Shown piece after piece: positions 2,014 to 24,694 of a DNA stretch of 24,694 bases. The stretch's first letter is position 1, and the number at the start of each line of letters is the position of its first letter. Source of the stretch: Emiliania huxleyi CCMP1516. Lineage: Eukaryota. The notes beneath the pieces were generated by a model. The model saw only the letters and a list, made by a program, of their open reading frames with translations, did no database searches and had not been told where the DNA came from. The position numbers were made by a program, and so were the translations under genes. The DNA lies in the NCBI RefSeq assembly GCF_000372725.1, contig NW_005201183.1, positions 191,972-216,665 on the forward strand, given 5' to 3'.

Positions 2014-2292
2014 GGAAAAGGGCGAAGGGTGCACAGGAGTGTGCTGCCATGTGCCCATTCTTCACGTTGCGAACGTCTCCGAGAGTGGGGAGAGGCGAAT
2101 CCGGAAGGGTAGAGGTTTGTGCATGCTCCACTGTTTCCTGCGGGTTGCTGCACGTCTGGGCTTTGTTGCTCGGCCGTGATGTGGCTTCGCGATGGCATGA
2201 ATGATCGTGTGTCGTACACTGTTGAGGGCCCGGGTTTTTCTTCATTTCTCACCTGTGTCGAGCCCGTCGCATTTTAAATTCTTTTTCTCACG

Positions 2293-3723
2293 ATGTCCAC
2301 CCCGCCGCGCCGCCGCTCGCGCCGCCTCGCCCCCGCCTCCTCCGCCACCCCCTCGCCAGACACGCCGCCGCCCGCCCGCCTCCTCGACCTCCCCACGGAG
2401 CTCCTCGTGCGCGCCATCTCTCGCTGCGACCCCGCCGACATCGCTCGCGTCGCGGCCGTCTCGCTGCTCTTCCACGCCTCGCTTGCGCTGGAGGCCATCC
2501 GCTTGTGGGCGCAGGAGCGCGGCTTCGAGCTGCCGGCGCTGCCAGAGGGCGAGAGCTGCGCTGTGCGGTGGCTGTGCTATTCTGCGCTGCTGCGCGAGTC
2601 CAACCCGCCGGCGAGGGCGGCGGCAAGCCAGTATCACAGCCTCTTCATCGTCGGCGAGGGGCGGCTCTCGTCGTGCGGCTGCCCGCCGGATCACGTCCCA
2701 GGCCTGCTCGGGCACGGCGAGGGCGTAACGCGGCTCAACACGCCGACCCGCCTCCCGTCGACGCCGGGCGCCGAGCGTGCAGTGAGTGTGTCGGCTGGAG
2801 GATTCCACAGTCTCGCCCTCACCGGCAGCGGCGCCGTCTGGAGCTGGGGCCAGGGAGTCTTGGGCGCGCTGGGCCACGGCGACGATCAGGACCTGTGGCA
2901 GCTGACGAAGGTTGAGGCCTTGGCTGAGCAGCGCATCATCGCAGTCTCGGCTGGACGCGAGCACAGCCTTGCCCTCACCGCTGACGGAGAAGTCTTGAGC
3001 TGGGGCTGGGGAAGGTCAGGCCGGTTGGGCCACGGCGACGAGGAGAAGCAGCCGCTGCCCAAGAAGGTCGAGGCCTTGGCGGAGCGGAGCGTTGTCGCTG
3101 TGTCGGCCGGAGGTCTGCACAGCCTCGCCATCACGGCCGACGGCGCCGTCTTGAGCTGGGGCGGTGGAGCCTCTGGCCGGCTGGGCCACGGCGACGAGCA
3201 GATCCAGCTGCTGCCCAAGAAGGTCGAGGCCTTGGCTGGCCAGCGCGTCGTCGCTGTGTCGGCTGGAGTGGTGCACAACCTCGCCCTCACCACCGACGGC
3301 AGCGTTTGGAGCTGGGGCGATGGAGCCTTTGGCAGGCTTGGCCACGGTTTCGACACGCAGAGCCAGCTGCTGCCGAACAAGGTCGAGGCCTTCGCTGGCC
3401 AGCGCGTCGTCGCTGTGTCGGCGGGATACTTCCACAGCCTCGCCATCACCGCCGACGGCGCCGTCTGGAGCTGGGGCGGTGGAGCCTATGGCCAGCTGGG
3501 CCACGGCGACGAGCAGATCCAGCTGCTGCCCAAGAAGGTCGAGGTCTTTGCTGGCCAGCGCGTCGTCGCTGTGTCGGCTGGAGGTCTGCACAGCCTCGCC
3601 CTCACCGCCAACGGCGCCTTCTTTACCTGGGGCGAGGGCGGCCGCGGCTGCCTAGGCCACGGAGAGGACCTGTCGAACCAGCTGCTGCCCAAGAAGGTCG
3701 AGGCGTGGGCGCCGGGGCAGTGA
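2293..3723 (+). CDS. RCC1/BLIP-II repeat beta-propeller protein with N-terminal F-box-like motif, 476 aa, intronless
   Basis: About 6 repeats of VVAVSAGxxHSLALTADGxVxSWGxGxxGRLGHGD; N-terminal LLDLPTELLVRAISRCDPADIARVAAVS resembles the F-box consensus; strong GC3 bias. Confidence 0.9.
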   Translation: MSTPPRRRSRRLAPASSATPSPDTPPPARLLDLPTELLVRAISRCDPADIARVAAVSLLFHASLALEAIRLWAQERGFELPALPEGESCAVRWLCYSALLRESNPPARAAASQYHSLFIVGEGRLSSCGCPPDHVPGLLGHGEGVTRLNTPTRLPSTPGAERAVSVSAGGFHSLALTGSGAVWSWGQGVLGALGHGDDQDLWQLTKVEALAEQRIIAVSAGREHSLALTADGEVLSWGWGRSGRLGHGDEEKQPLPKKVEALAERSVVAVSAGGLHSLAITADGAVLSWGGGASGRLGHGDEQIQLLPKKVEALAGQRVVAVSAGVVHNLALTTDGSVWSWGDGAFGRLGHGFDTQSQLLPNKVEAFAGQRVVAVSAGYFHSLAITADGAVWSWGGGAYGQLGHGDEQIQLLPKKVEVFAGQRVVAVSAGGLHSLALTANGAFFTWGEGGRGCLGHGEDLSNQLLPKKVEAWAPGQ

Positions 3724-4047: not shown

Positions 4048-7000
4048 TCAGCCCTTTGCGTCGGCCTTCGCCTTCGCCTTCGCCTTGCGCTCCGTCTTGA
4101 GCGCGGCGGTGGCGGCGGAAGGCGCCACGAGCTTGACGTTGGAGATCATCTGCCGGACCAGCTCGTCGTCCTTGATGGCCTACACGAGGCGCAGCAAGAG
4201 CGCTAAGCGGGGAGCGCCGACCAGCACGCCGCTCGTCCTACTCCGCAGCCGCCCGCATCAGCTCGCGCTCTCGCTCGCTCGCGCCGCCCGCGCCGCCGCA
4301 AAAGATGCCGACGGCCTGACGGCGGCAGGAGGTGTGACTACCAGTGCTATGGACCGGACCGGCGGACCAAATGCCGCCCGCCTGCTTGGCGGCCTTGCCC
4401 TTCTTCTGCGAGCCCGGCGTGAGCTTGACGCGGAATCGGTACGCCTGTTCACAGCTGCCGCCGTGAAGAGGCGCTCTCGACAGCCGCGAGCTCCGCGCCG
4501 AGCTCGCGCGCCGACAGGGCCGAGTACGGCGCGCAGACGGGCACCGCGTAGAGGAGCGAGTCGCCCTCGGCGGGCAAGGCCTTGAGACAGGGGGGGCGAG
4601 TGGTGGACGCGTCGTGGACACGCCCCACACAGCGGAACGCCCTCTTCGGCGGGGGTCGGGGTGGGGCCGGGGTCGTGAGGGAGTCGTGCTACCTCTCGGC
4701 TACCTCTCGGCTACCTCTCGGCTACCTCTCGGCTACCTCTCGGCTACCTCTCGGCTACCTCTCGGCTACCTCTCGGCTACCTCTCGGCTACCTCTCGGCT
4801 ACCTCTCGGCTACCTCTCGGCTACCTCTCGGCTACCTCTCGGCTACCTCTCGGCTACCTCTCGGCTACCTCTCGGCTACCTCTCGGCTACCTCTCGGCCA
4901 CCTCTCGGCTACCTCTTGGCTACCTCTCGGCTACCTCTCGGCTACCTCTCGGCTACCTCTCGGCTACCTCTCGGCTACCTCTCGGCTACCTCTCGGCTAC
5001 CTCTCGGCTACCTCTCGGCTGTCTCTCGGCTATCTCTCGGCTATCTCTCGGCTATCTCTCGGCCGTGAGGGCGTCATGCTGCGCGAGCGCCGCGCGCTGC
5101 CCCTCGTCGAGCTCCTGCGGGGCGTGTCAGTGCATCACCGGCGCATGCTCTTGGAGCAGCGACCCCACCCGCCCCTCCTCCTCGCCTGTATGCTCGGCTC
5201 CTCGAGCAAACTCCTGCGCGCGCGGAGGGAGGGGGAGGGGGGGGGGGGGGGGTTCCCGGCCAAACAAGGGCAGAGGCGCCTCCAAGGGCAAGGGGGGGCC
5301 ACCGCAGCTCGGCTGCTCCAGCCGCGTCAAAAGAAGCGGGGGCAGCCTTGTCGGGGACCGCAGTCGCCCCCGCCCCCGCCGAATGCCGCTCCTTGGGGGC
5401 CGTTTCCGCCTGGTCACGAAAGCTCCCAGTGAGTCCCCGGGACGGCTCCCCGGCTGTGGGGCTCCTTGCGCCGGGGAATCTTTCCTCCCGCTGCTCGGGG
5501 ACGCGGCGCGCCTGCTTCTCCACGTTGTCCTTGTGCCCCTGAACCTGCTGGCAAACCCGTCCTGTGAAGAGGCAGCTGTCTCCTCCCCTCTCCGGGCCGT
5601 CCCTTGCGCCGCCGCGCCTTTTGGGCCTCCCTCGGCGCCTTTNNNNNNNNNNNNNNNNNNNNNNNNNNNNNNNNNNNNNNNNNNNNNNNNNNNNNNNNNN
5701 NNNNNNNNNNNNNNNNNNNNNNNNNNNNNNNNNNNNNNNNNNNNNNNNNNNNNNNNNNNNNNNNNNNNNNNNNNNNNNNNNNNNNNNNNNNNNNNNNNNN
5801 NNNNNNNNNNNNNNNNNNNNNNNNNNNNNNNNNNNNNNNNNNNNNNNNNNNNNNNNNNNNNNNNNNNNNNNNNNNNNNNNNNNNNNNNNNNNNNNNNNNN
5901 NNNNNNNNNNNNNNNNNNNNNNNNNNNNNNNNNNNNNNNNNNNNNNNNNNNNNNNNNNNNNNNNNNNNNNNNNNNNNNNNNNNNNNNNNNNNNNNNNNNN
6001 NNNNNNNNNNNNNNNNNNNNNNNNNNNNNNNNNNNNNNNNNNNNNNNNNNNNNNNNNNNNNNNNNNNNNNNNNNNNNNNNNNNNNNNNNNNNNNNNNNNN
6101 NNNNNNNNNNNNNNNNNNNNNNNNNNNNNNNNNNNNNNNNNNNNNNNNNNNNNNNNNNNNNNNNNNNNNNNNNNNNNNNNNNNNNNNNNNNNNNNNNNNN
6201 NNNNNNNNNNNNNNNNNNNNNNNNNNNNNNNNNNNNNNNNNNNNNNNNNNNNNNNNNNNNNNNNNNNNNNNNNNNNNNNNNNNNNNNNNNNNNNNNNNNN
6301 NNNNNNNNNNNNNNNNNNNNNNNNNNNNNNNNNNNNNNNNNNNNNNNNNNNNNNNNNNNNNNNNNNNNNNNNNNNNNNNNNNNNNNNNNNNNNNNNNNNN
6401 NNNNNNNNNNNNNNNNNNNNNNNNNNNNNNNNNNNNNNNNNNNNNNNNNNNNNNNNNNNNNNNNNNNNNNNNNNNNNNNNNNNNNNNNNNNNNNNNNNNN
6501 NNNNNNNNNCGTCAGAGTCGCTGGCGAGCCGAGCTGCGTCTTGCGAACCAGCGGTGGTCACGACATGCCTAGAAGGTTCCTAGAAGGCTCCTGGAAGGCT
6601 CCTAGAAGGTTCCTAGAAGGCTCCTAGAAGGCTCCTAGAAGGTTCCTAGAAGGTTCCTCTGCGGTGGTCTCTCGCGCGACCGCCTTGAAGAGGACGCCGA
6701 GCCCCATCAGCAGCTGCGTGGGCGGCAGGTACTCCTTGCTGCCCCGTATGACGAACTGGCCGGCGGGCAGCCGGTCGCCCGTCGCCCTCTGCTTGTGGAC
6801 CTGGTCGTGGGCCACGTGCCACGCCGACGTGACCGTGCGAGAGGTCCACGCGCCTGCGGGAAAGTGGCTGGTGGAGGGGGGCCCAAGGGGGAAGGGACGT
6901 CACACCGCCAGAGGCCCGCGCGCGCCCGAGCGGCAGAGCACGTACGACCCAGCTTGCGAGAGAGTGAGCGGCGGCACCGCCGCCGCCGCGCCGTTCGCCT

Positions 7001-10000
7001 TGACGATACACGGCAGCGCGCCGTCGATGTCGCAGCCAACGAAGACGTCCCCTGGCCCGAGGTGTCGCTGGGCGAGCAGCTCCGCCTGCGAGACGCAGCC
7101 GAGATACAGCCGAGATACAGCCGAGGTGCAGCCGAGGCGCAGCCGAGGTGCAGCCGAGGTGCAGCCGAGGTGCAGCCGAGATACAGCCGAGATACAGCCG
7201 AGGTGCAGCCGAGGTACAGCCGAGGTGCAGCCGAGGTGCGGCCGAAGTGCAGCCGAGGTGCGGCCGAAGTGCAGCCGACGTGCGGCCGAGGTGCAGCCGA
7301 GGTGCGGCCGAGGTGCGGCCGAGGTGCGGCCGAAGTGCAGCCGACGTGCGGCCGAAGTGCAGATCTCGTGCAGATCTCGTGCAGATCTGCTGCAGATCTC
7401 GTGCAGATCTCGTGCAGATCTCGTGCAGATCTGCAGCAGATCTCGTGCAGATCTCGTGCAGATCTCGTGCCTGCGCCCCGTCATGCGGCGCGAGGACGAG
7501 GCAGTTCTCCGACGAGATGAACCATGCGAACTTCTCCCACCAGCCCGTCGACCGCACCTAGAAGGTTCCTAGAAGGTTCCTAGAAGGTTCCTCTGCGAAC
7601 TTCTCCCACCAGCCCGTCGACCGCACCTATAAAAAAGAAAAAACACTTGCCGCATGGTGGGAGTGTTTTTCTTTATTATCACCAGCCCGTCGACCGCACC
7701 GCCCGGATCGAGGCGCTCACCTTGATGGCCGCCACCGACGCCTGCGCCTTCGACTCGGCCGACCGGACCGCCCCGTCCGCCGCGGCGATCGTCTTTGCCG
7801 TCTTGAGAGCCGCGGCCTTCTTCTGCGCGTAGAAAGCGCGCGCGTTGGAGAGGGCCGACTCCCGCACGTCCAGCGCGACGAGCGTCGCCTGCAGGAAGAG
7901 GGACAGAGACGCGTCGAGGGGTGGGCGCCCTCCTCCAGAGGCGGCAAGCCAGAAGGACGAGCGTCGCCGGCCGAGTCAGCTCCTCCTCGCTCGCCTCCTC
8001 GTCCGCCTCGAGCGCCACGGTCACCGAATGGCGAGCCAAGTCGAGCCGGACCACCTAGACACTCCCTGGACACTTCCCAGACACCTCCTTGGCCACACCT
8101 CTCAAGTCGAGCCGGACCACCATCGCCGCTAGCTGGTCGCCCGCCCGAGCAGATTCGTCGACCAGCTCCTGCAGAGCGGTCCACGCCATCCCGCGGCCGA
8201 GGCCTGCGCGGAGCGACGCGAGGAGCGAGTCCACCTCGCCCGCGCGCAGCTCGAGCAGCTCGCCTGTTCACAGCTGCAGGTGTGAAGAGACGCTGTTCAC
8301 ACCTCGCCCGCGCGCAGCTCGAGCAGCTCGCCGCGCCGCCGGTCCTCCTCTTCCTTTGCGCGCAGCTCGCCCACCCTCCGCTCCTGCGCCTCCTTCACCT
8401 TGTCCACCTTCTTCCACGCCGCCGCCTGCTTGCTGCTCACCTCGTCCACGCCCCGCTCCATCTCCACCTACCCTCCCAACCAGCCACAGCTCCTTGCCGG
8501 CGGCCCGCACCCCGGCCCTCCGCCCGGCCCACTCCGCCACTCCGCCTTTGCGTAGAACTCGTCCACCGCCTCCCAGAAGGCAGCGTACCGCAGCAGCCGC
8601 CTGCCGGCGTGCTGCGCAAGCGTGTACGGCGCGAACTCGAGGAAGAGCCGGCCGTCCGAAGCCTCGCCGCCCTCGCCGCCCTGCTGGCCTCCGCCCGCGC
8701 CACCCCCTCCCCCCCCCCCTCCTCCACCCCCTCCTCCACCCCCTCCCCCCCCCCCTCCTCCGCCCCCTCCGGCTCCGTCCCGAAGCACGATCCAGCCCAG
8801 CGGCGCGGTCGACGCGCGCAGCTCGCCAGCCCCCTCCCCTGCCACCACGCCCGCCGCCACACCGCCCGCCGCCACACTTCCCGCCGGCGACTCGGGTGGG
8901 TGAGCTGGGGAGTCGGCCTCGTCCGCCGCCGCCTCGTCCTCTTCGGCAAGGACGGGCGGGGGGGCGTCGACGAAGAGGGCCGCCGCCTACGTGGGGAGAT
9001 ACGGGGAGGTGTGGGGAGGTGTGAAAGAGGGCCGCCGCCGCCCACACGTGTCGCAGGCTCACGAGGAGGACTGCTGCTCCTCTCTCTCTCTCTCAACCCG
9101 ACTGTGCAGGCGAGGGGGGGTGCGAGGCGCCTCCTCCAGCGCGCCGACCAGCCGCCCGAAGGCCTCCCCTTCCCACGGCCTCGCCGCAAGCCGTGTGCCA
9201 GCCGGCAGGTCTGCGGCGGCGCAGGCGTGCTCCGCTATCTCTCTGCCGAGGGGGACGGCGCGGAGGAGGAAGGCGCCGAGCTGCTGAGAGCCTGTGAAAA
9301 CGGTCGGAGAAGGGGCCGGGGGTGGGGTCCTGGAGGGGGGGGGGGGGGGGGAGGGCGCCGAGGCTGCTGCGAGCCGTCTGCCGCCGCCATCTTGGCTGCG
9401 AGCCACGCCTGCAGGAGGAAGGGTCCGGGAAGGGTCCGGGAAAGGTCCGGGAAAGGTCCGGGAATCGCAGCGCCCGTCTGCTCGGCAGGCCCGCGCCTCG
9501 GAGAGCGGCGGCAGCTCGCGCGAGGCGGAGAGCGGGTACGCCTCCTTGACCGTCACGCGCGCCTGTGGGAAGGGCTCAAAGACGGCTCGGAAGAAGGCTC
9601 GCGGGAGAGACGGCACCGACGGCGACGGCAGCAGCATCGCCTCGCTGTCGTGCTTGGAGGAGCGGAGGAGGGTGAGGATGGTGTGGGAGCAGTCGGTGAG
9701 CACGACGTTGCCCTTGTCGTACAGCTCGACGATCAGGTGGTGCCGCGCCTCGCCCGAGCCGCACGCCACCACCAGCACCCGGTCTGCGCCCGGCTGCAGC
9801 AGCTGCTCGATCCGCTTCCCCTTGAGGTGCTTGCGCAGCTTCATCGTGAAGCCGCTCGGCGTGCCCTCCTTGTCGCGCGCGTACCGCGTCAGGTGGAAGC
9901 GCACGCCCGACTCGAGCAGCAGCAGCAGCTTTGGCGCTTCGGGCTTGGAGAGCTTGAGGATGTAGGTGCGCGGGTTGGCGTCGTAGACGTTGGTGATGCG

Positions 10001-10090
10001 GTAGCCGGCGATCATCGGCTCGAGCGACGTGGCCATCGCACGGACGTCGAGCGACGAGAAGCGCGATTTCGCGGCCTTGCCCTTCCCCAT
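4048..10090 (-). CDS. NEMF: NEMF/Rqc2/Tae2 (NFACT family) ribosome quality-control subunit; multi-exon, spans gap 5643-6509
   Basis: N-term KSRFSSLDVRAM, GYRITNVYD, LLLESGVRFHLT, PSGFTMKLRKHL, HHLIVELYDKGNVVLTD; NFACT-R WWEKFAWFISSEN, VPPLTLSQAG, GQFVIRGSKEYLPPTQLLMGLGVLFK; C-term LLYAVPVCAPYSAL, YRFRVKLTPGSQKKGKAAK; stop TGA at 4048-4050. Resolved introns include 4180-4252, 4445-4511, 4581-5063, 8264-8331 (all GC-AG). Confidence 0.93.
4444..4482. repeat. 39-bp intron-associated core, copy 1 (diverged)
   Basis: CCTGTTCACAGCTGCCGCCGTGAAGAGGCGCTCTCGACA; supplies the 3' splice site (GTGAACAG on minus) of NEMF intron 4445-4511. Confidence 0.75.
4689..5063. repeat. Intronic 11-mer array (CTACCTCTCGG)n, about 34 copies
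   Basis: Directly visible; lies in NEMF intron 4581-5063, whose GC donor is at the array edge. Confidence 0.95.
6568..6660. repeat. Intronic 11-mer array (CCTAGAAGG[T/C]T)n
   Basis: About 8 copies; same unit recurs at 7557-7593. Confidence 0.9.
7091..7470. repeat. Intron made of two abutting 11-mer arrays (GCAGCCGAGGT)n and (GCAGATCTCGT)n
   Basis: Fills the NEMF intron between ...HDGAQ and AELLAQR...; switch of unit near 7358. Confidence 0.92.
8263..8301. repeat. 39-bp intron-associated core, copy 2, with 33-bp flanking duplication
   Basis: CCTGTTCACAGCTGCAGGTGTGAAGAGACGCTGTTCACA; perfect direct repeats at 8232-8264 and 8300-8332. Confidence 0.88.
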
Positions 10091-11116: not shown

Positions 11117-11542
11117 TCATGACTGCAATCGGCCCAGTATGACGACCTTGCCGTGCGAAGAGAAGGTCACCTCGACGGGAGGCAAAAATGGCTCGCCTCT
11201 GCCGTTCAGAAAGGCCTGCACGCCCTCGTGAAAGCTCTTGCCGGTCTGGGGGAAGTGCGCGTTCCTGCCGCGCGTAAAGCTGAAGCCGAAGGCTTTGCCC
11301 GACGCCCCTACACCCGCCGCGTCGGTCGTCAAGAGCTTTTTCAGGCCTCCCGGGTGAGAGTTGACCATGTCGGTAGCGTCCACAACATATCCATCAACGA
11401 CTGCCCAGAAGTTCTCTCCGCCTCGACCGTTGTGCTGCCTGACCTCGTCGTGCGTGATCACCCGCGGCGAGGCAGAAGCCGGCAGGGAGAGGCCTTCTGC
11501 GCAGAAGCGTTCATGCGCATGGTCGTCCGACACGACCGCCAT
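11117..11542 (-). CDS. Cytochrome b5-like heme/steroid-binding domain protein, 141 aa
   Basis: ITHDEVRQHN...FWAVVDGYVVDATDMVNSHPGG matches the b5 fold including HPGG; in-frame stop two codons upstream of the ATG. Confidence 0.85.
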   Translation of the reverse strand: MAVVSDDHAHERFCAEGLSLPASASPRVITHDEVRQHNGRGGENFWAVVDGYVVDATDMVNSHPGGLKKLLTTDAAGVGASGKAFGFSFTRGRNAHFPQTGKSFHEGVQAFLNGRGEPFLPPVEVTFSSHGKVVILGRLQS

Positions 11543-11709
11543 GCCTCAACGCCTCAAGTGCTTGGGAGCACCTTGCCCTGCGGGCCGCGTCGGCCTAGCT
11601 TGATGACTGAAGAATTTAAACAAAAGAACTCTCTCTCACAGCAGACAGGCTCGACACAGGTGCGAACTGGCGCGTGCTAGTACTATCACCGGCACACCAC
11701 CGGAGCCGC

Positions 11710-12753
11710 CTAAGCGACTCCGTTAAGAACGGCAATGCACTTAGCTCCGTGCACAATGCCGCTGTCCCCGCACGCTAGCTCGTTCACCGTCTGCCACGCC
11801 ACGGCGGTGTGGAGAACGACAGACAAGCGCTGCATCTGCAGCCCGTGCCAGTTCTTGGTGGTCCATGTGACCTCATCGAGGTGCTGAGCGTGCGAAAGTT
11901 TGTTACTCAGCTGGTCCGCCGCCTGCCGAAGAATTCTGCGGACGCCGTCCCCGAAGCCGCCGAACGTCTCGAAGTCGAGCAAACGCAGGTCGCAATTCTT
12001 CTCCCGCGCGAACCGGTATTCGCCCTTCTCGTAGCGGGCCGTCACAGGTGCCCCCGCCTCCGCCTCCCCCTCACTCTCCCCCTCCTCCTCTTCCGCCGCC
12101 GCCGCCTCCGCCTCTGCATCCTCCGCCTCCCTCCCCCCCTCCCCCCCCCCTCCCGGCCGCGGCCATGCAGCATGCCCTAACACTAAGTCGAGCAGCGCCC
12201 GCTCGGTGTTGCCGAAGGCGACAAAAGCCCCCTTCCAGCCGAGCCGATCGCCACCCTTGCACGCAAGCGAGCTCGTCAGTTTCAAGTCGCCAACGAGGCG
12301 CACATGCCCTTTGCCGATGTTCGCCGCCGCCACGTCAGGTTGTTTTGGGTTACTGTAACTGAGGTGTGCAGTCGGCTCCATCTCGATGAGCATGCCCCAC
12401 GCCGAGCGAAGGGTCTTGACGAGTCGTTTGAGCAGGTATTTGTGTCGTGTCGCGTGCTTCGCACGCGGGTTGACCATTGCGGCATCGCCGAGTTCTTCGT
12501 GCGGCTTGCCGTTTGGCGCCTTCTTGCCCGCCTCCACCGCCTGGCAGGCAACATCGAGCGGGAGGCCGAGGCGGCGCTGAACTGTCATGCGCATCGCCCA
12601 CGTCTCCATCTTCATATCATCCCGCATGGGGATCGCATTCAGGAAGGCGCCAGCCCCCTCCTGGCTGACTGCGACGAACCGAATCGCCTCGCGCCAGCAC
12701 TTGTGGTTCTTGCACCTGCCAGTCTTGTAGCGGCCGCCCTGCCGGGACGACAA
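11710..12753 (-). pseudogene. C-terminal restriction-like endonuclease (PD-(D/E)xK) region of a CRE-clade retrotransposon ORF; open frame, no RT
   Basis: AGAFLNAIP...RRLGLPL, RH, EP, QPDV...VGDLK, FETFGGF motifs typical of CRE/SLACS-type C-termini; homologous to 19770..20705. Confidence 0.82.
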
Positions 12754-14295: not shown

Positions 14296-14609
14296 CAGTG
14301 TCTTGTTCCGCTTGTCCTGTTGTCCTGGTTGCTTGGATATATCTCTCCCGGCCCAAAGACGGACGAACCAGAGCTCGGCGCAGCCTGAGGGGTGGCCCGT
14401 CTACCGTCTACCGGTAGACTGGGGTAGACTGGGGTAGACGGTAGACCATTTGGTAGACGAGTCTACCACGAGTCTACCGCAGTCTACCGGTAGACCGTAA
14501 TGAACCTACGACACCAGTTCTACCGGTAGACCGTAATGAACCTACGACACCAGTCTACCGGTAGACTTGGTAGACCGCGGTAGACTTGGAGCACTTGGAG
14601 ACTGGTCTA

Positions 14610-15160
14610 CCCCTTTTTCGCCGCCGAACGGCAGACCGCCGCCGCCGGACGGTAGACCGCCTCGGCCGTTTGAATATGCAGCCTCCAGTTCTCCACTCTG
14701 GCGCCACTTTGGCAGACGAGCGCCGGCAGATGCCCTCGCGGCCTGCCGGCGAACGTCCGTCCGGCGAGAACGCGCGCCATAATGGACGTGTGGCTGTCTG
14801 GCGAAAACTCGCTCTCGAGAGCCGCGAGAGGGCGGCGCTCTGCAGTGAGCGGTTCCGCCCGATGAGTGTGTAAAGACGTTCATTTGATCTCATAAAAGAC
14901 ACGGAGCTCGCCTCGCACGGAAATGGCATGAGGTGAAGCTCACAGCGACCGCGCTCAACAGCCTCTCTCACCGGCAGATTTCGCCCGCGCGGCAGACCGC
15001 ACTTTCATCGCGCGTTCTCGCCGGACGGACGTTCGCCGGCAGGCCGCGAGGGCATCTGCCGGCGCTCGTCTGCCAAAGTGGCGCCAGAGTGGAGAACTGG
15101 AGGCTGCATATTCAAACGGCCGAGGCGGTCTACCGTCCGGCGGCGGCGGTCTAAAAGGGG
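14610..15160. mobile_element. 551-bp MITE with TA TSD (Tc1/mariner-like signature)
   Basis: TA|CCCCTTTT...AAAAGGGG|TA; about 144-bp inverted repeat 14633-14776 vs 15009-15152; empty site GGTCTACCGTC visible in the opposite arm (17860-17870). Confidence 0.88.
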
Positions 15161-15182
15161 TACCGTCGGGTACTTATTTTAA

Positions 15183-17421
15183 AGGCCAAGGTAGGCCGCC
15201 TATTGAAATCGAACAGAGCGCTAGCGCTCTCTTCGCGCAAGCTCGCACGGCCTCTCACGCTCCGCTGCTGCCCTCTTGGCGGCTCTCCGCCCGCCAGCTC
15301 GACCAACTCGACCGCCGAGAGGCTGGGATTGGCCGGCGGCGCGACGCGTGGCCTCTGCTGCGGCCATCTCGGACGCTCAAGCGGCGCCAGCCAGCGGCTC
15401 GGCCGCGCATCCTTCACACACGCCGCCACGACCAAGCTGAGCGGGCCCGGTGTCGAGTCATGGTGCGAGATGCATGTCAGGGGCGGCTGTGGCCACAGCA
15501 GGTCCACCAGACGGGCGTCAAAGCTTGCCGTCGGCGTGCTGTAGTGGCGAGAGCCGAGACCGCTGCAGAGGAGCCGAGTGCAGTGGCGAGCCAGAGGCTA
15601 CCAGGGTCACCAGGTGGTAGCCCTTGCCCATTCTGAGCAGGGATGTGCTTTGATGGGGTTGTGCTTGAGCGTGTGTGAAGTGGGAGTGCGTGCCGGCGGT
15701 GTCTGTGGCTGAAACGGGCGTGTGTGAGGCTGCAGAGCCGTGGTATGAGCCAGAGTGAGCTTCATCACCCAAGATAAGTGCGGTTTGGGACGGCTCAGAC
15801 TTGCTGTTGATGGGCCTGGGCCAGGAGAGCGACAGAGAAGGCGAGGTGGTCAGCTGGGAAGCCGCTTTGTCGGCACCTGGACGTGTCGCGATGAAGTGCC
15901 AAAAAGTACTATTTGCGGCTATTGCTCCAAACTTCGGGAGACAAGGCCTACATATTATGACTGCATCCATGAGCCTAGTGCATGAGGGCTGTGGGTCGGG
16001 ACATTTCACAGTCGATGGCGCCGATAATGACCTCCGTAATGCCCTCGCAATCGGCTCGGATGGGGTCCACCGGGGACAATCTCGGAGCCCTCTCCGTGGC
16101 ATCACGAGCCGGTGTGAGCTTGAAGACCCGAGGTAAGTGCGGTTTGGGACAGCTCAGACCTGATACTGATGGGCCTGGGCCAGGAGAGCGACAGAGAAGG
16201 CGAGGTGGTGAGCTGATAGGCTGAAGAGTCCGCGTGTGACCTTGTCGCGATTAAATTGCCACNNNNNNNNNNNNNNNNNNNNNNNNNNNNNNNNNNNNNN
16301 NNNNNNNNNNNNNNNNNNNNNNNNNNNNNNNNNNNNNNNNNNNNNNNNNNNNNNNNNNNNNNCCGAGGTTTTCTGCTCTCAGCTCACCACCTCGCCTTCT
16401 CTGTCGCTCTCCTGGCCCAGGCCCATCAGTATCAGGTCTGAGCTGTCCCAAACCGCACTTACCTCGGGTCTTCAAGCTCACACCGGCTCGTGATGCCACG
16501 GAGAGGGCTCCGAGATTGTCCCCGGTGGACCCCATCCGAGCCGATTGCGAGGGCATTACGGAGGTCATTGTCGGCGCCATCGACCGTGAAATGTCCCGTC
16601 CCGCAGCCCTCATGCACTAGGCTCATGGATGCAGTCATAATATGTAGGCCTTGTCTCCCGAAGTTTGGAGCAATAGCCGCAAATAGTACTTTTTGGCACT
16701 TCATCGCGACACGTCCAGGTGCCGACAAAGCGGCTTCCCAGCTCACCACCTCGCCTTCTCTGTCGCTCTCCTGGCCCAGGCCCATCAGCAGCAAGTCTGA
16801 GCCGTCCCAAACCGCACTTTTTCTTGGGTGATGAAGCTCACTCTGGCTCATACCACGGCTCTGCAGCCTCACACACGCCCGTTTCAGCCACAGACACCGC
16901 CGGCACGCACTCCCACTTCACACACGCTCAAGCACAACCCCATCAAAGCACATCCCTGCTCAGAATGGGCAAGGGCTACCACCTGGTGACCCTGGTAGCC
17001 TCTGGCTCGCCACTGCACTCGGCTCCTCTGCAGCGGTCTCGGCTCTCGCCACTACAGCACGCCGACGGCAAGCTTTGACGCCCGTCTGGTGGACCTGCTG
17101 TGGCCACAGCCGCCCCTGACATGCATCTCGCACCATGACTCGACACCGGGCCCGCTCAGCTTGGTCGTGGCGGCGTGTGTGAAGGATGCGCGGCCGAGCC
17201 GCTGGCTGGCGCCGCTTGAGCGTCCGAGATGGCCGCAGCAGAGGCCACGCGTCGCGCCGCCGGCCAATCCCAGCCTCTCGGCGGTCGAGTTGGTCGAGCT
17301 GGCGGGGCCGGCGAAGATTTCGGGGACGTGACCACAACTCGGGCAGCGACAGCGCGCTTGAGCTTAGCTTGTCCGACACCCCTCAAAATCGGGGTCTTTT
17401 CAATAGGGCCCACCTTGGCCT
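15183..17421. mobile_element. TTAA-flanked element with long internal inverted repeats (Kolobok-like termini), spans gap
   Basis: TTAA at 15179-15182 and 17422-17425; ends AGGCCAAGGT/ACCTTGGCCT; near-identical inverted arms 15290-16216 and 16379-17306; no transposase visible. Confidence 0.78.
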
Positions 17422-17425
17422 TTAA

Positions 17426-17844
17426 GAGCAGGTAAACAGCAATAGATCCGGCCCTCAAGCGGCCTAATCGATACCCAGTCCTCACGGAATCGGTCCCTCG
17501 TTGTACAGCAATCGATCCTTCACACTGCCCGCGCTGCCAAACTTGCTGAGAATCGGTCCCCCCACCTGTGGCGCGAAGCTGATATGTCTCCCGCGCTCGG
17601 CGCGCCGACCGCGCAGCGGCGGCAGACCACCCTCCGGTTCGAGGGGCGCCTGGGGGTGAGCGGGCTGCCTCCGCCAGAGTTTGGCTCGCCCACCTGTGCG
17701 GGCCCCCCTGTACCCCCTCCCCAAGTCCCTCCCCCCCCCGGCCCGGGTGTCTAGCAATTGGTCCCTTGGCAAGCGCGAATCGGTCCCCCTGGCTCCAGGA
17801 ACTGATCCGGCACTACACCCGGATCTATTGCTGTTTACCTGCTC
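17426..17844. mobile_element. 419-bp MITE with TTAA TSD (Kolobok-like termini)
   Basis: Perfect 26-bp TIR GAGCAGGTAAACAGCAATAGATCCGG; TTAA at 17422-17425 and 17845-17848; internal GAATCGGTCCC three times. Confidence 0.9.
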
Positions 17845-18025
17845 TTAAAATAAGTACCCGACGGTAGACCAGTCTACCGCGGTCTACCAAGTCTACCGGT
17901 AGACTGGTGTCGTAGGTTCATTACGGTCCACCGGTAGACTGCGGTAGACTCGTGGTAGACTCGTCTACCAAATGGTCTACCGTCTACCCGGTCTACCGGT
18001 AGACGGTAGACGGGCCACCCCTCAG

Positions 18026-18306
18026 GGCGCAGCTGGTCAAGCGGGTGCGCATCGCCCTCGAGCCGCTCGACGGCATCATCCAGCTGCGCGACGCGCCCAG
18101 CCTCGACATCGCGCAGCAGGCGCAGCACTGCCTCATGCGCTACTGCTCCAACACCACCCTCGTCTACTTCCTGCGCACCATGCCGCCGTCCATGTGATCA
18201 TCGAGGCGGCGCAGGAGCACGACCGGCTCATCGCCTCGGCCTTCCACCGCATCGTCGGCTCCGAGGCGGGCTCGCCGGCGCAGTGCGAGCGTGCGCTGCG
18301 GCAGGC
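18026..18306 (+). pseudogene. RT C-terminal/thumb remnant of CRE-like element B
   Basis: AQHCLMRYCSNTTLVYFLRTMPP / IIEAAQEHDRLIASAFHRIV...ALRQA resembles the CRE post-RT motif; frameshift near 18190. Confidence 0.72.
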
Positions 18307-19607: not shown

Positions 19608-19715
19608 TTCACGTTCACACTCGCTAGGAAAAGTGAAATTTCGTTTCACATGAAATGTGAAGTGAAAGTGAAAGTGAAATCGATTCGCTGTTTCCATGTG
19701 AAATCACGAACCCTG
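19608..19715. mobile_element. Solo hAT-like transposon end with GTGAAA subterminal repeats
   Basis: Cluster of GTGAA(A)/TTCAC motifs ending CACGAACCCTG (reverse complement CAGGGTTCGTG); partner end not found. Confidence 0.45.
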
Positions 19716-19769: not shown

Positions 19770-20705
19770 GTGCAGCATGGCTCGGCTTTTGGAATGCGTT
19801 GCAGCTACCGGGCGTGGCTAGGCGGGAGGCGGTGCGCTTCATCGCCGTCAGCCAGTACCAGGCGGGCGCCTTCCTCAACGCCCTCCCCTCGCGCCGCGAC
19901 TTTCGTATCCCGACGTGGGCGCTGCGCATCGCCGTCCAGCGGCGCCTCGGGCTACCACTTGACGAGGCGCTCGCGCGGGGCGCGCCGACCTGCTCGGCGC
20001 GCGGCGGCAAGGTGCAGGACCCACTGGGCGAGACGCGGCCAGCAACATCGGCCGCCTCGGGCATGCGGCCGCCATAACAGCCTCCTCGCCGCCCTGGCCA
20101 AGGTCATGCGGAGCGTGTGGGGCATGCTCGTCGAGGTGGAGCCGCGGGACCACCTCGGCTACTCTAACAACTACCGGCCCGACGTCTCGGTGGCGGGCGC
20201 CGGCCGCTCGCGCTCGCGCCTCGTCGGCGACGTCAAGTTCAAGGACTCGCTCTCCTCCAACCCGGAGGACGTCGGCCAGCGAGGCGCTTTCGTCGGCCTC
20301 GGCAACACCGAGCCCGGCACGAGCGCGGACGTCTTCGGCCTCGAGCAGCGCGGCGCTGTCGGGGACGGCGACTTCAGGCCGAGCGACGGCGGCGGCTATG
20401 TGGCGTACAAGAAGGCGGACTACGCGCACGCCCTCTCGCGCTCGGACACCGACGTGCAGATGTACCTGTTCGAAATTTTCGGCGGGTGGTGCAACGCGGT
20501 CAAGCGGCTGTTCTACCAGATGAAGGACAAGGTGCGCAACAAGCTCTCGAAGCGGCAGCACGAGGACGAGGCGAGCTGGTCGACGCGGTCGTGGCTCTCG
20601 CTGCAGGCCCAGCGCATGTCAGTCGCGCTGCAGCTCGCGGCGGCGGAAGAGATTGCGACCGAGCTCAGGCTCGCCGCGGCGTCGGAGGACGCCGCCGTCG
20701 CCTAG
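19770..20705 (+). pseudogene. Restriction-like endonuclease region of CRE-like element B, frameshifted
   Basis: REAVRFIAVSQYQAGAFLNALP...RRLGLPL then RHNSLL...EP...RPDV...VGDVK...FEIFGGW; frameshifts near 20030 and 20068. Confidence 0.85.
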
Positions 20706-21088: not shown

Positions 21089-24000
21089 ATGCTGCTGCTC
21101 AGACGACCGCGGCGCACCGCCGTCGCCCGGGCGCGCGCCGCCTCGAGCGGCGCGGCGCAGTGGCGGCCGCCGCGCCGGCTGCCGCCCAAGCAGGGCCTGT
21201 ACGACCCGGCGCTCGAGCGAGACTCTTGCGGGGTGGGGATGGTGGCGCACCTAAAGGGGCAGGCGAGCCACGAGATCGTGCGCGACGCAAACACGATGCT
21301 GGTGCGGATGGCGCACCGCGGCGGTTGCGGCTGCGAGCCCTCCTCGGGCGACGGCGCTGGCATGCTCACCGGCATGCCGCACGCGTTTCTGACCGAGGCG
21401 GTCGGCGCAGACCTCGGTGTGGCGCTGCCAGCGGCGGGCGCGTTCGGCGCGGGCAACGTCTTCTTCCCGCGCGACCCCGCGGTCGTGGCCGAGTGCAAGG
21501 CGGTGGTCGAGCGCCACGTCTCGCGCCTTGGCCTGAGCCTGATCGGCTGGCGGCCGGTCCCGGTGGACAACTCCGCGCTCGGCCCGACGTCGCTCGAGTC
21601 GGAGCCGCACACAGAGATGCTGCTTGTGGGCGGGCCGTCCGGCGGCGCGCCGCTGCCCGAGGGAGCGCTCGACCGCGAGCTCTACCGCCTTCGCCTCGCC
21701 GCTTCGAACGAGATCCACGCGACGGGAGGCGACGCGGCGGCCGACTTTTACGTCTGCTCGCTCAACACGTGCGCACGCCTCGTGTCGCGACCGCGTCGGG
21801 GAGGGAGAGGAGGGCGCGGGCGAGGAGTCACGCACCTCGCGGAGTGTGCGTGTGTAGGTCGACTCTTGTCTACAAGGGCCAGCTCACGCCGGAGCAGGCG
21901 CGCGCGGCCCCTCCCCTACCGCCACGGTATCCGAACCCATCCCCGCCCCCCACGGTACCCGAACCCTGTGACAGGCGCGCGCGGCCCCTCCTCATATCTC
22001 CCCATATCTCCCCGTATCTCCCCATATCTCACGCGAGAGCAAGCGCGCGCGCCGCCCCTCCGCTCCCCTCGTCGTCCTCTCCCCTCCTCTCGTCCTCCCC
22101 TTGGCCGCCAATCCCCCGCCGCTTGCGCAGGTGTGGGGCTACTTCGTCGACCTCCAGTCCGCGCAGTACACCTCGCACCTCGCCCTCGTCCACTCGCGCT
22201 TCTCCACGAACACCTTCCCCTCGTGGGCGCGCGCGCAACCCTTCCGCGCCCTCTGCCACAACGGTGAGGCCCATAGTACCTCGCTGCACAGTAGCGCGCG
22301 CAACCCTTCCGCGCCCTCTGCCACAACGGTGAGGCCCATAGTACCTCGCTGCACAGTAGCGCGCGCAACCCTTCCGCGCCCTCTGCCACAACGGTGAGGC
22401 CCATAGTACCTCGCTGCACAGTAGCGCGCGCAACCCTTCCGCGCCCTCTGCCCGCAACGGCGAGAAGACCACAGCGGCGGGGGAGCACGAGTGCATCTGT
22501 CGGGCGACCGCATCGCCCCTCCTCGCGCGCAGGCGAGATCAACACGCTGCGCGGCAACAAGAACATGATGCGCTCGCGCGAGGCGCCGCTGCAGTCCGCC
22601 CCTCTCCGGCGATGCCCTCGTGTGCCACGGCCCCGACGCGCCCTCGGCATGTTCCGCAGGCGCTGCTGCAGTCCGCCTACTTCGGCGAGGCCATGTCGGA
22701 GCTCGGCCCAATCTGCTCCGACGATCTGTCCGACTCGGGCAACTTCGACGCCGTCGCCGAGCTGCTCCTCCGCGCAGGCGAGATCATCTCCCCCCATACC
22801 TCCCCATATCTCCCCGAGCTGCTCCTCCGCGCGGGCGAGATCCAGCCGAGATCTCGCTCGGGATTGCCGACCCCTCCGCGCGGGCTGCCGTCCTCCGCGC
22901 GAGTGTGCTGCCGCCCACTGCCTGCTCATGAGTGCTCTGCAGGCGACCGTCCGCTGCACGAGGCGGTGATGATGATGGTTCCCGAGGCGTGGCAGGGCAA
23001 GCCCGGCAGCCCGGCGCGCAAGGCCTTCTACGCGTACAACGCAAACCTGATGGAGCCGTGGGACGGGCCCGCGATGATGTCCTTCACCGACGGGAGATAC
23101 GTCGGCGCGTGCCTCGACCGGAATGGGCTGCGCCCCTCGCGGTGCCACGCTGCAACCGAGGGCGGCCGCCGGGGCAAGGTCGGGGCGTGGACGGGACGCG
23201 TGTCCGTCTGCCCGTTAGGTACTACGTGACTACGGACGATCGCGTGCTGCTCTCGTCTGAGGTTGGGGCGTCCCAGCCATCCCTCCCCTACCCCCACGGT
23301 ACCCGAACCCATCCCCTACCCCCACGGTACCCGAACCCCTCCCCTACCCCCCACGGTACCCGAACCCCTCCTCTACCCCCACGGTACCCGAACCCCTCCC
23401 CTACCCCCCACGGTACCCGAAACCCTCCCCTACCCCCCACGGTGCCTGAACCCCTCCCCTACCCCCCACGGTACCCCAACTCCTCCCCTACCCCCCCACG
23501 GTACCCGAACCCCTCCCCTACCCCCCACGGTACCCGAACCCCTCCCCTACCCCCCACGGTACCCGAACCCAGTGCTGCTCTATCTGAGGTGGGGGCGTAC
23601 CACTCACCACGTGGAGCAGCGGCGGCTGGCAAGCCCACCCCCCTCCCTCCCTCGCCCGCAGGTGGGCGTGCTCGACCACCACCTGTTCACAGCCGGACGT
23701 GTGAAGAGGCGCTGTTCACACCTCGCCCGCAGGTGGGCGTGCTCGACCACCTGGACGAGGCGGTCGTCAAGACAAAGGCGAGGCTCGAGCCGGGCCGCAT
23801 GTTCCTGATTGACTTTGCGCAGCAGCGCATCGTCCCCGACGAAGAGCTCAAGGAGACGATGGCGGCGGCGAGGCCGTACGAGGCGTGGATGGCGTCGCAG
23901 CCGCTCCTGCTGGACGAGTGGGTCGCGGAGGCGCGCAGTCCGCCGCACCGCCCCCTCCCCTCCCCCCTCCTCTCGGCTCTCACCCCGGGGGGGTGGACCC

Positions 24001-24694
24001 GACGCACAGGCGGCCGTACCGCCGGCGCCGCACCCGGCGCGCGGAACGCTAAACTCGACGCTCTCGATGCACGGCTTCACCAAGGAGTCGTCCGACCTGC
24101 TCGTCGCCGCAATGGCGCGCGGCGGCGGAGGCAGCTTGTCGGCACCGGCTCTAGACACGGCGTGTGTGAGCGATGGCGTCGCCTGGTCGCAGGCGCGCGG
24201 CAAGGAGGCGCTGGGCTCTATGGGCGTGGACACGCCGCTCGCCGCCCTCTCGTCGCAGCCGCGCATGCCGTCGCACTACTTCAAGCAGCTCTTCGCGCAG
24301 GCACCCCGCCTCACTCTCACCACGCCGCCCTTCCCGCGCCGCGTCGCACGGCTCCGCTCCCTCGCAGGTGACCAACCCGCCCATCGACCCGATCCGCGAG
24401 GAGATAGTCATGTCGCTCCAGACGCCGGTCCGACTACCCGGCCCTGCAGCCGCGGGCGTGTCCGCGACACGTCCGCGACACCGCGGCGTGCGCGCTGTAG
24501 GTTGGGCCGGAGGCGAACCTGCTCGAGGCGACCGAGGCGCACGCGCGGCGGCTCGTGCTGCCTCATCCGGTGCTATCGCTGCAGGAGCTCGAGGCGCTCA
24601 AGAGCGCGCCTCACAAGGGGTGGGCGGCGACCACACTCGACGCAACCTACCCGAAGAGCGAGGCGGACGCCTCGCCGACGGCGATGCGCGACGC
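21089..24694 (+). CDS. GLT1: Glutamate synthase (GOGAT), probably NAD(P)H-type; 5' portion, multi-exon, runs off window
   Basis: [108 protein letters not shown]. Confidence 0.95.
22229..22452 (+). repeat. 65-bp tandem repeat of exon end plus 30-bp insert, about 3.5 copies
   Basis: GGTGAGGCCC at 22263, 22328, 22393; each unit repeats the 35-nt exon end GCGCGCGCAACCC...CACAACG. Confidence 0.92.
23281..23570 (+). repeat. Intronic 28-29-mer array (CCCTCCCCTACCCCCCACGGTACCCGAAC), about 10 copies
   Basis: Directly visible; same unit occurs twice in another intron at about 21910-21967. Confidence 0.93.
23682..23720. repeat. 39-bp intron-associated core, copy 3, with 31-bp flanking duplication
   Basis: CCTGTTCACAGCCGGACGTGTGAAGAGGCGCTGTTCACA; perfect direct repeats at 23650-23680 and 23721-23751. 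Confidence 0.88.

What the first reader, a model, noticed from the sequence alone, without database searches (positions are those of the whole stretch)
8232..8332. 39-bp mini-element in three introns, both orientations, with a shared target motif
Seen: core CCTGTTCACAGC-N6-YGTGAAGAGRCGCT(GTTC)ACA at 4444, 8263 and 23682. The two best copies have a TTCACA/TGTGAA hairpin and CTGTTCACA at both ends (29-nt period). In NEMF it supplies the acceptor GTGAACAG for two GC-AG introns (67 and 68 nt). In GLT1 it is antisense and duplicates an existing acceptor. The duplications at 8232 and 23650 both contain CCTCGCCCGC right after the core. Inference: a tiny mobile introner-like unit, possibly targeted by base-pairing of its template with CCTCGCCCGC.
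Basis: partly seen in the sequence, partly recalled or inferred. Interest (0 to 1): 0.8.

Follow-up and report, generated by a model that had tools for sequence, protein, structure and literature searches.

The report
Duplicate-and-fill intron-making element in Emiliania
In the alga Emiliania huxleyi a 39-base repeat sits at many sites between two copies of 10-34 bases of the host gene, forming a unit of about 68 bases that reads as an intron; it likely spreads by being copied from nearby copies, and unrelated fillers show the same layout, which likely points to a general way this genome makes new introns.

Summary
Observation confirmed: three cores, none in 100 shuffles. The window is Emiliania huxleyi. 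A metagenome scan gave 134 further distinct copies. Read in splice sense, 136 of 137 end GTGAACAG, and 116 of those 136 are followed by GC or GT. In 86 of 129 copies the host sequence after the AG is duplicated upstream (null 7 of 638), at a period of 59-78 nt. The duplicate supplies the donor and the core supplies the acceptor. The core's other end is ragged and shares bases with neighbouring copies. CCTCGCCCGC is not a family target motif; it is likely parent-target microhomology. The same ~70-nt layout occurs with unrelated fillers (56 of 94 non-core duplications), so the process is probably not core-specific. Splicing is supported for one metagenome copy by RNA and for two window copies by homology. 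An empty allele at 8263 appears in two DNA runs but could be assembly collapse. The insertion signature matches Chlamydomonas Replitron-1 point for point, but no transposase was found. Published introner tables probably list the family as 'Unknown' with a 2-nt duplication (sequences not seen).

The parts
8263..8301 (-). 39-nt core, young copy; 10-nt near-palindromic terminal direct repeats; fixed end supplies the acceptor AG
8264..8331 (-). 68-nt NEMF intron = copy of the downstream exon + core (GC-AG; an equivalent GT-AG cut lies 3 nt further on)
   Evidence: frame needs removal of 68 nt
8232..8264 (-). target duplication, exon-side copy (33 nt, begins with the G of the acceptor AG)
8300..8332 (-). 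target duplication, intron-side copy; supplies the G|GC donor
4444..4482 (-). older core copy, distal repeat decayed
4445..4511 (-). 67-nt GC-AG NEMF intron with a decayed duplication (17/29)
23682..23720 (-). core copy antisense to GLT1
23650..23680 (+). 31-nt duplication, first copy, holds the first acceptor AG (23660-23661)
23721..23751 (+). 31-nt duplication, second copy, holds the in-frame acceptor AG (23731-23732)
8302..8311 (+). CCTCGCCCGC beside the ragged end (also 8234, 23650, 23721); likely parent-target microhomology, not a family motif
8055..8120 (-). sibling 66-nt intron: 18-19-nt duplication plus an unrelated filler; spliced in RNA run X12
7889..7967 (-). sibling 79-nt intron: 12-13-nt duplication plus an unrelated filler; spliced in X10 and X12
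7558..7699 (-). two successive duplicate-and-fill units at one site (73 nt, AT-rich filler; 69 nt, 11-mer array filler)
8987..9038 (-). sibling 52-nt unit: 14-nt duplication plus a 10-mer-type filler
4048..10090 (-). host gene NEMF/Rqc2-like (NFACT-R and NFACT-C domains)
21089..24694 (+). host gene glutamate synthase (GLT1), runs off the window; first exon 100% identical to the E. huxleyi CCMP1516 protein

Best explanation
This is a copy of an abundant E. huxleyi intron-making insertion: a 39-nt core ending in AG lies between two copies of 10-34 nt of host sequence, and it likely spreads by one-ended copying from a nearby parent copy during repair of a staggered break, by machinery that is likely not specific to this sequence. 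Steps. (1, inferred) A target is nicked or broken at G|GY, with the other strand cut 10-35 nt away. (2, inferred) The 3' end primes on a nearby existing intron at its AG|G junction through 2-3 nt of microhomology. (3, product shown, process inferred) Synthesis copies the last 36-59 nt of that intron: the core plus a ragged bit of the parent's own flank. (4, inferred) It rejoins the target by microhomology, which duplicates the target stretch; the net insertion is about 68 nt (shown). (5, shown for some copies) In sense orientation the duplicate gives the GC/GT/GA donor and the core gives the acceptor, so splicing restores the mRNA. Antisense copies likely survive when the duplicate holds an AG|GY (GLT1, L064). 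Selection likely removes the rest. The anatomy and the introner status are about 0.9 sure; the confidence below is for the copying route.
For: Fixed end: 136 of 137 copies end GTGAACAG, then GC 62, GT 54, GA 10, GG 2, other 8; background GY is 18.6%. Duplication in 86 of 129 copies (null 7 of 638), and 87 of 109 by gapped alignment (null 43 of 863); 64 of those 87 start at the G of AG. In 33 young copies the duplicate (10-34 nt) and the copied part (36-59 nt) are anti-correlated, r = -0.84, SD of the sum 3.6 against 6.2 and 6.4 for the parts. Ragged ends of 6 nt or more are shared in 8 of 35 same-locus pairs (3 of the 8 are tandem arrays, 5 are separate sites) against 32 of 11,085 between loci. 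In L039 the shared bases are target-derived in one copy and foreign in the other; in L037 the pair is in opposite orientations with the same rare loop. Both orientations occur: codon model 58 sense, 16 antisense of 74 (cross-validation 23 of 24); Pfam gives 9 genes sense and 2 antisense, one of those a likely chimeric contig. 8 of the 10 clearest antisense calls still have GY (two are alleles of one site). Sequence independence: 56 of 94 non-core two-copy duplications have period 60-82 nt (null 0.5 per replicate; a few rows are the same site), with AT-rich, 11-mer-array and unique fillers. Splicing: RNA contig joins L039 355 to 435 while DNA contigs of three other runs read into that intron.
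Against: No enzyme, break or intermediate was observed. This model does not explain why the total stays near 68 nt; selection on intron length or in-register copying must be added, and length inheritance in 5 local pairs is only suggestive (p = 0.07). Local pairs differ at 2-4 of 38 core positions while most of their duplications are near-perfect, so they may be siblings or conversion products, not parent and daughter. Terminal direct repeats and an 11-bp inverted repeat look like protein-binding features that a sequence-blind route does not need. 43 of 129 copies have no clear ungapped duplication; these are more decayed (2.4 against 1.1 mismatches in the distal repeat). The search pattern fixed 21 positions and the 3' end, so 3'-truncated copies could not appear. 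Both young L039 copies were present in the DNA contigs of X2 and in part X8, so no empty allele was seen there. The AG|GY rescue of antisense copies is not significant (6 of 10 against 13 of 47, p = 0.07).
Confidence: 0.42

Rival explanations
1. A minimal non-autonomous HUH transposon (Replitron-like or one-ended Helitron2-like): a Rep transposase binds the direct repeats and hairpin, joins the fixed end to an RCC-3' target, and resolves the other end sloppily, leaving parental flank and a variable duplication.
For: [quoted passage not shown] Chlamydomonas CRe Helitron2 elements show one-ended insertion with 7-19-bp duplications and extra captured bases. Tandem arrays of duplicate plus core occur. 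Putative Replitrons are reported from two haptophytes.
Against: That survey reports haptophyte Replitrons only from Phaeocystis antarctica and Chrysochromulina tobinii, and says the duplications and fuzzy ends are seen only in C. reinhardtii. The target is RCC, not RG. The core (39 nt) is shorter than one aligned Replitron terminus (about 53 bp). No HUH or other transposase domain in 20 window frames or in 150 of 253 locus frames. Unrelated fillers share the layout. The hairpin is not stable above shuffles as sense RNA.
Confidence: 0.25
2. RNA-templated gain: a spliced or reverse-spliced intron RNA is reverse-transcribed from its 3' AG at a nicked target (TPRT-like, or RNA-templated repair in cis), which makes any intron's 3' half a potential introner.
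For: The fixed end is exactly the intron 3' end in the core family and in the splice-readable non-core units; the other end is ragged like a 5' truncation; duplications are long and variable; donors are local; unrelated fillers behave alike. A whole-intron template would explain the constant length.
Against: Antisense copies exist and mostly keep GY after the AG (GLT1, L064), which a free intron RNA does not carry. Copying runs about 20 nt past the likely branch point, so it needs a debranched RNA (inference). No reverse transcriptase was found. No poly(A) or simple-repeat tail.
Confidence: 0.25
3. No dedicated spreading step: ordinary tandem duplications at AG|GY make introns, and ectopic gene conversion later spreads the core among them.
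For: Several duplicates contain AG|GY (GLT1, L064, the far end of the 8263 duplicate). Local sharing of ragged ends and tandem arrays could be conversion or unequal crossover.
Against: The core sits between the duplicates with one end at a fixed register in 64 of 87 copies. Only 13 of 47 sense copies have an internal AG|GY option. Perfect duplications flank consensus cores, which suggests they arose together.
Confidence: 0.08

Closest known systems
E. huxleyi CCMP1516 introner families of Gozashti et al. 2022 (PMC9860276, Suppl. Tables 5-6) and 2025 (PMC12130899, Dataset sd07 fam24)
   Same: Same species. 653 introner copies listed; a 70-nt family of 158 copies; fam24 spans 70 nt, 'co-opt 5' carry 3'', '10bp terminal direct repeats'. 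Probably this family.
   Different: Classed Unknown; target duplication '?' (2022) or 2 nt (2025). The rows read do not record the 10-34-nt duplication, the ragged end or local hopping. Identity is unproven: four core motifs were not found in the supplements (the 2022 file is cut).
Replitron-1 / Replitron-N1 of Chlamydomonas reinhardtii (PMC10288648)
   Same: Oriented insertion, terminal direct repeats, fuzzy end from the parent's flank, variable duplication including the target, imperfect 11-bp palindrome.
   Different: 0.9-3.6 kb, RG target, depleted in coding sequence and introns, not described as intron-making in the parts read, has a known Rep transposase; no constant total length reported.
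CRe-1/2/3 Helitron2 one-ended insertions (PMC3627910)
   Same: One intact end, one variable end, duplications of 7-19 bp (sometimes longer), extra captured bases.
   Different: TTTT target, asymmetric inverted repeats, kilobase elements carrying Fanzor; not introns.
TIR/TSD introners of Micromonas, Aureococcus, Symbiodinium and Polarella
   Same: [quoted passage not shown]
   Different: Their duplications are fixed and short (3-9 bp) and the intron is nearly all element. Here almost half of each intron is a copy of its own exon and the length is variable.
Intron gain by tandem duplication of AGGT, and by break repair with short direct repeats (recalled; search listing only)
   Same: A duplicated AG|GY gives both splice sites in the antisense cases; direct repeats at intron edges.
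   Different: Here a multicopy filler is inserted between the duplicates and normally supplies the acceptor.

Membership tests
Introner (broad sense) | similar sequence in introns of many unrelated genes | tested here: met
   137 distinct copies (some are alleles of one site); unrelated host genes by Pfam
Introner (broad sense) | spliced out, restoring the mRNA | tested here: met
   RNA join with DNA retention for one L039 copy, in different samples; domain and homologue continuity for 4445-4511 and GLT1
Introner (broad sense) | recent insertion shown by empty alleles | tested here: inconclusive
   68-nt skip in DNA contigs of X2 and X6, but the 33-nt duplication allows graph collapse; none seen at L039 or in 24 overlapping locus pairs
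TIR DNA-transposon introner (MITE) | terminal inverted repeats and a short fixed duplication | tested here: not met
   terminal repeats are direct (near-palindromic); duplication 10-34 nt; one end ragged
Replitron | short terminal direct repeats | tested here: met
   10-nt repeat at both core ends
Replitron | oriented target, fuzzy parental end, variable duplication (Replitron-1 type) | tested here: met
   the target is RCC rather than RG
Replitron | Rep HUH transposase (PF21859) in an autonomous partner with the same ends | tested here: inconclusive
   none in 20 window frames or 150 of 253 locus frames; the genome is not held
Helitron / Helitron2 | TC...CTRR ends or asymmetric inverted repeats with a 3' hairpin; A|T or T-rich target | tested here: not met
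   target G|GY, direct repeats
SINE / non-LTR retroposon | 3' A-rich or simple-repeat tail | tested here: not met
   the duplication starts at the AG with no tail
SINE / non-LTR retroposon | partner reverse transcriptase; RNA-derived head | not tested
   no Rfam scan run; genome not held
Penelope-like element / retrozyme | pseudo-LTR tandems, reverse transcriptase with GIY-YIG, hammerhead ribozyme | not tested
   paper passages read; the 39-nt unit is too short for a hammerhead (own knowledge)

The most novel reading that the evidence does not exclude
E. huxleyi mass-produces introns by a sequence-independent duplicate-and-fill reaction. It copies the 3' half of an existing, often neighbouring, intron (or new low-complexity DNA) in front of a G|GY site and duplicates enough host sequence to give about 70 nt. 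Intron 3' halves would then be selfish replicators without a transposase of their own, and this 39-mer would be the most visible lineage. That would be an intron-gain route distinct from classical transposon introners, active now and polymorphic among strains.
Probability: 0.4. Interest if true: 0.9.

Novelty: new variant of a known kind. Interest (0 to 1): 0.72.

Why it matters
How new introns arise is a long-standing question, and about 72% of catalogued introner families have no assigned mechanism (PMC12130899). Here each intron records its birth: target, duplication length, ragged end and often its likely parent. The layout (nearly half of the intron copied from its own exon, constant total length, many unrelated fillers) is not that of the short-duplication introners in the papers read. 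It would also account for many GC donors here, since the donor is simply the first bases of a GC-rich exon (inference). The alga is culturable and many strains are sequenced, so empty alleles, parent-daughter chains and the enzyme can be tested directly. The repeats are also a practical hazard for short-read assembly and gene models.

Tried and rejected
Whole genome not held, so no genome-wide count. Viral contigs: 0 matches. CCTCGCCCGC as target motif: rejected. Stable RNA hairpin: not above shuffles; the DNA fold and covariation were not tested properly because the search pattern fixed one arm. Longer parent element: all-against-all BLAST of core-masked flanks showed only alleles, decayed cores and other intronic repeats in the part of the output shown (cut). 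Pfam: no transposase in 20 window frames or 150 of 253 locus frames; 103 shorter frames were not scanned. Empty alleles among 24 overlapping locus pairs: none. L039 young copies: no skipping joint among those listed; RNA run X10 did not bridge them. Summed depth over the core (about 750,000 against 70-108 on the flanks in X2) is not used as a copy number. The relaxed search included mirrored hits; the counts used come from the true-orientation sets. Literature: ten searches listed no paper describing long exon duplications in E. huxleyi introns; subscription papers are not in the library and the genome paper was not among the listings. Earlier scan notes: nothing by sequence or place. A homologue search with a Replitron transposase was not run because no session tool had supplied such a protein, so its presence in E. 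huxleyi is open.

Full report
Setting. The first GLT1 exon is 100% identical to an Emiliania huxleyi CCMP1516 glutamate synthase. The minus-strand gene is NEMF/Rqc2-like (NFACT-R and NFACT-C). No whole genome was held, so family evidence comes from marine metagenome contigs and public runs.

The observation. All three cores, both duplications and the CCTCGCCCGC positions are as stated. The 67-nt intron splits NFACT-C cleanly and has a decayed duplication of 17/29. In GLT1 only the second acceptor keeps the homologous frame [13 protein letters not shown]; whether the 71 nt go in one step or as a second GT-AG intron cannot be told. The hairpin is not stable above shuffles as sense RNA.

The family. 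With the window there are 146 matches and 137 distinct flanks; several are alleles of one site in different assemblies. Contigs of four runs and loose ends at the core (212 contigs ending before 8261-8263 in the rows shown for X2) indicate at least hundreds of sites per genome; I give no exact number. That the metagenome copies come from E. huxleyi or close kin is inferred from shared intronic repeats and from cultured-organism runs covering L039.

Anatomy, in splice sense. 136 of 137 copies end GTGAACAG; the next two bases are GC 62, GT 54, GA 10, GG 2, other 8 (background GY 18.6%). Of 129 copies with enough flank, 86 have the sequence after the AG repeated upstream (score 9 or more; 7 of 638 in mismatched pairs), at 59-78 nt, mostly 65-72; the base before the donor is G in 74 of 86. 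Gapped alignment finds 87 of 109, 64 starting at the G of AG. So each intron is a copy of the start of the next exon, then a ragged junction, then the core. In 33 young copies the duplicate is 10-34 nt, the non-target part 36-59 nt, r = -0.84, and the sum varies about half as much as the parts. The 43 copies without a clear ungapped duplicate are more decayed. Tandem arrays of duplicate plus core are common.

The target motif. CCTCGCCCGC abuts the core only in the two window copies, and is in other targets at background rate (3 of 149 against 1.9%). But ragged ends are shared locally: 6 nt or more in 8 of 35 same-locus pairs (3 are arrays) against 32 of 11,085 between loci. In L039 the shared bases are part of one copy's own target and foreign in its neighbour; in L037 neighbours in opposite orientation share 9 ragged bases and a rare loop. 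The window pair's 10-mer fits this: a parent flank matching the new target at the far end of the duplication. Against simple parentage, these pairs differ at 2-4 core positions.

Orientation. A codon model trained on 2,976 nt of window sequence (one short training segment was in a wrong frame; cross-validated strand 23 of 24) of 74 copies sense and 16 antisense. Pfam agrees: 9 genes sense, 2 antisense, one a likely chimera. Antisense copies mostly keep GY (8 of 10), so the bias is probably not only selection for a donor. GLT1 and L064 are tolerated because the duplicate holds AG|GY; as a trend this is p = 0.07.

Splicing and polymorphism. RNA contigs of X10 and X12 skip 8232-8299 along with neighbouring introns. 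DNA contigs of X2 and X6 skip the same 68 nt while keeping the other introns. This is either an empty allele or collapse of a 33-nt repeat in a k=31 graph (the k value is recalled); if empty, those RNA joins say nothing about splicing of this copy. The control on L039, where exact duplicates are under 30 nt, showed both young copies present in DNA and no empty allele, and showed an older core intron (356-434) removed in RNA while DNA of X1, X2 and X8 reads into it.

Not specific to the core. NEMF itself has sibling units of 52, 66, 69, 73 and 79 nt with other fillers, two stacked at one site. Across all loci, 56 of 94 non-core two-copy duplications of 12 nt or more have period 60-82 (null 0.5); 18 of the 56 read as donor...AG within 2 nt of an exact duplicate end (chance 8%); a few rows are fragments of one site. 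Fillers include AT-rich DNA (down to 9% GC), 10-11-mer arrays and unique sequence. This is the main reason to prefer sequence-blind machinery.

Mechanism. I favour one-ended templated copying from a nearby intron during repair of a staggered break (0.42), over a minimal HUH transposon (0.25), RNA-templated gain (0.25) and duplication plus conversion (0.08). Shown: the products, their register, local sharing, both orientations, splicing of some copies. Inferred: the break, the priming, the template molecule and the enzyme. Unexplained: the constant length; inheritance from the parent is only suggestive (differences 0, 0, 1, 3, 5; p = 0.07).

Comparison with what is known. Gozashti 2022 (PMC9860276: passages and supplement rows, file cut) lists 653 E. 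huxleyi introner copies, including a 70-nt family of 158 with TSD and TIR '?'. Gozashti 2025 (PMC12130899: main text parts 1-2 of 7 and supplement rows) lists fam24, 70 nt, Unknown, 10-bp terminal direct repeats, co-opting the 5' site, with a 2-nt duplication. This is probably the same family, but no sequence was seen, and data deposited outside the supplements may hold more. Craig 2023 (PMC10288648, parts 1-5 of 7) describes the Replitron-1 signature, which matches, and names no Replitron from E. huxleyi in those parts. Bao and Jurka (PMC3627910, passages and section 8) describe one-ended Helitron2 insertions. Passages only: PMC9977147, PMC8557442, PMC11282704 and bioRxiv 2020.10.14.339549, where introner duplications are 3-8 nt. 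It works like a Replitron-1-type insertion and is an introner in the broad sense; it fails the TIR, Helitron-end and SINE-tail tests, and Replitron membership is open.

Verdict. Real, abundant and probably already counted as an unclassified introner family, but its long-duplication, ragged-end, constant-length anatomy and its sharing with unrelated fillers were not found in print in the ten searches made. New variant of a known kind; interest 0.72.

Noticed in passing
window 14384-18026: Element with long terminal inverted repeats (40 + 87 + 68 nt arms) enclosing a near-perfect 488 + 444 nt inverted repeat around a gap; no Pfam hit in the frames scanned; may be partly an assembly artefact.
   Followed up: partly
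window 12201-12695 and 19821-20313: Two diverged inverted copies of a transposon-like coding fragment (I10/I12/I22/I25); no Pfam hit.
   Followed up: partly
window 7558-7699: Two duplicate-and-fill units with unrelated fillers stacked at one site; similar stacking in L078 and L096, so a used site can be hit again.
   Followed up: partly
window 22229-22464: 65-nt unit repeated 3.6 times inside GLT1; period close to the ~70-nt class, possibly an amplified duplicate-plus-filler array.
   Followed up: no
window 8055-8120: The 66-nt sibling intron is spliced in the X12 contig but retained in the X10 contig.
   Followed up: no
runs X10 and X8: A core-30 nt-core contig has depth 4,091 in RNA run X10 and 2,217 in DNA run X8, about four times the single-copy depth there: likely a transcribed tandem array.
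   Followed up: no
L004 1-743: A cytochrome b coding sequence (Pfam) runs directly into a core array; the gene looks bacterial (own judgement), so the contig is likely chimeric.
   Followed up: partly
L055, L056, L078, L096, L104: Very AT-rich fillers (9-37% GC) rich in TTAATTAA in a 63-65% GC genome, unlike each other; they look newly synthesised rather than copied.
   Followed up: partly
window 19608-19702: AT-rich cluster of TTCAC/GTGAA motifs unrelated to the core.
   Followed up: no
core loop positions -18 to -16: Variants that improve pairing of the inverted repeat are commoner in decayed copies (G at -17 in 10 of 43 against 10 of 86); one arm was fixed by the search, so this is only a hint.
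   Followed up: partly
window 2278-3723 and 11117-11545: F-box/RCC1-repeat gene and a cytochrome b5-like gene.
   Followed up: no
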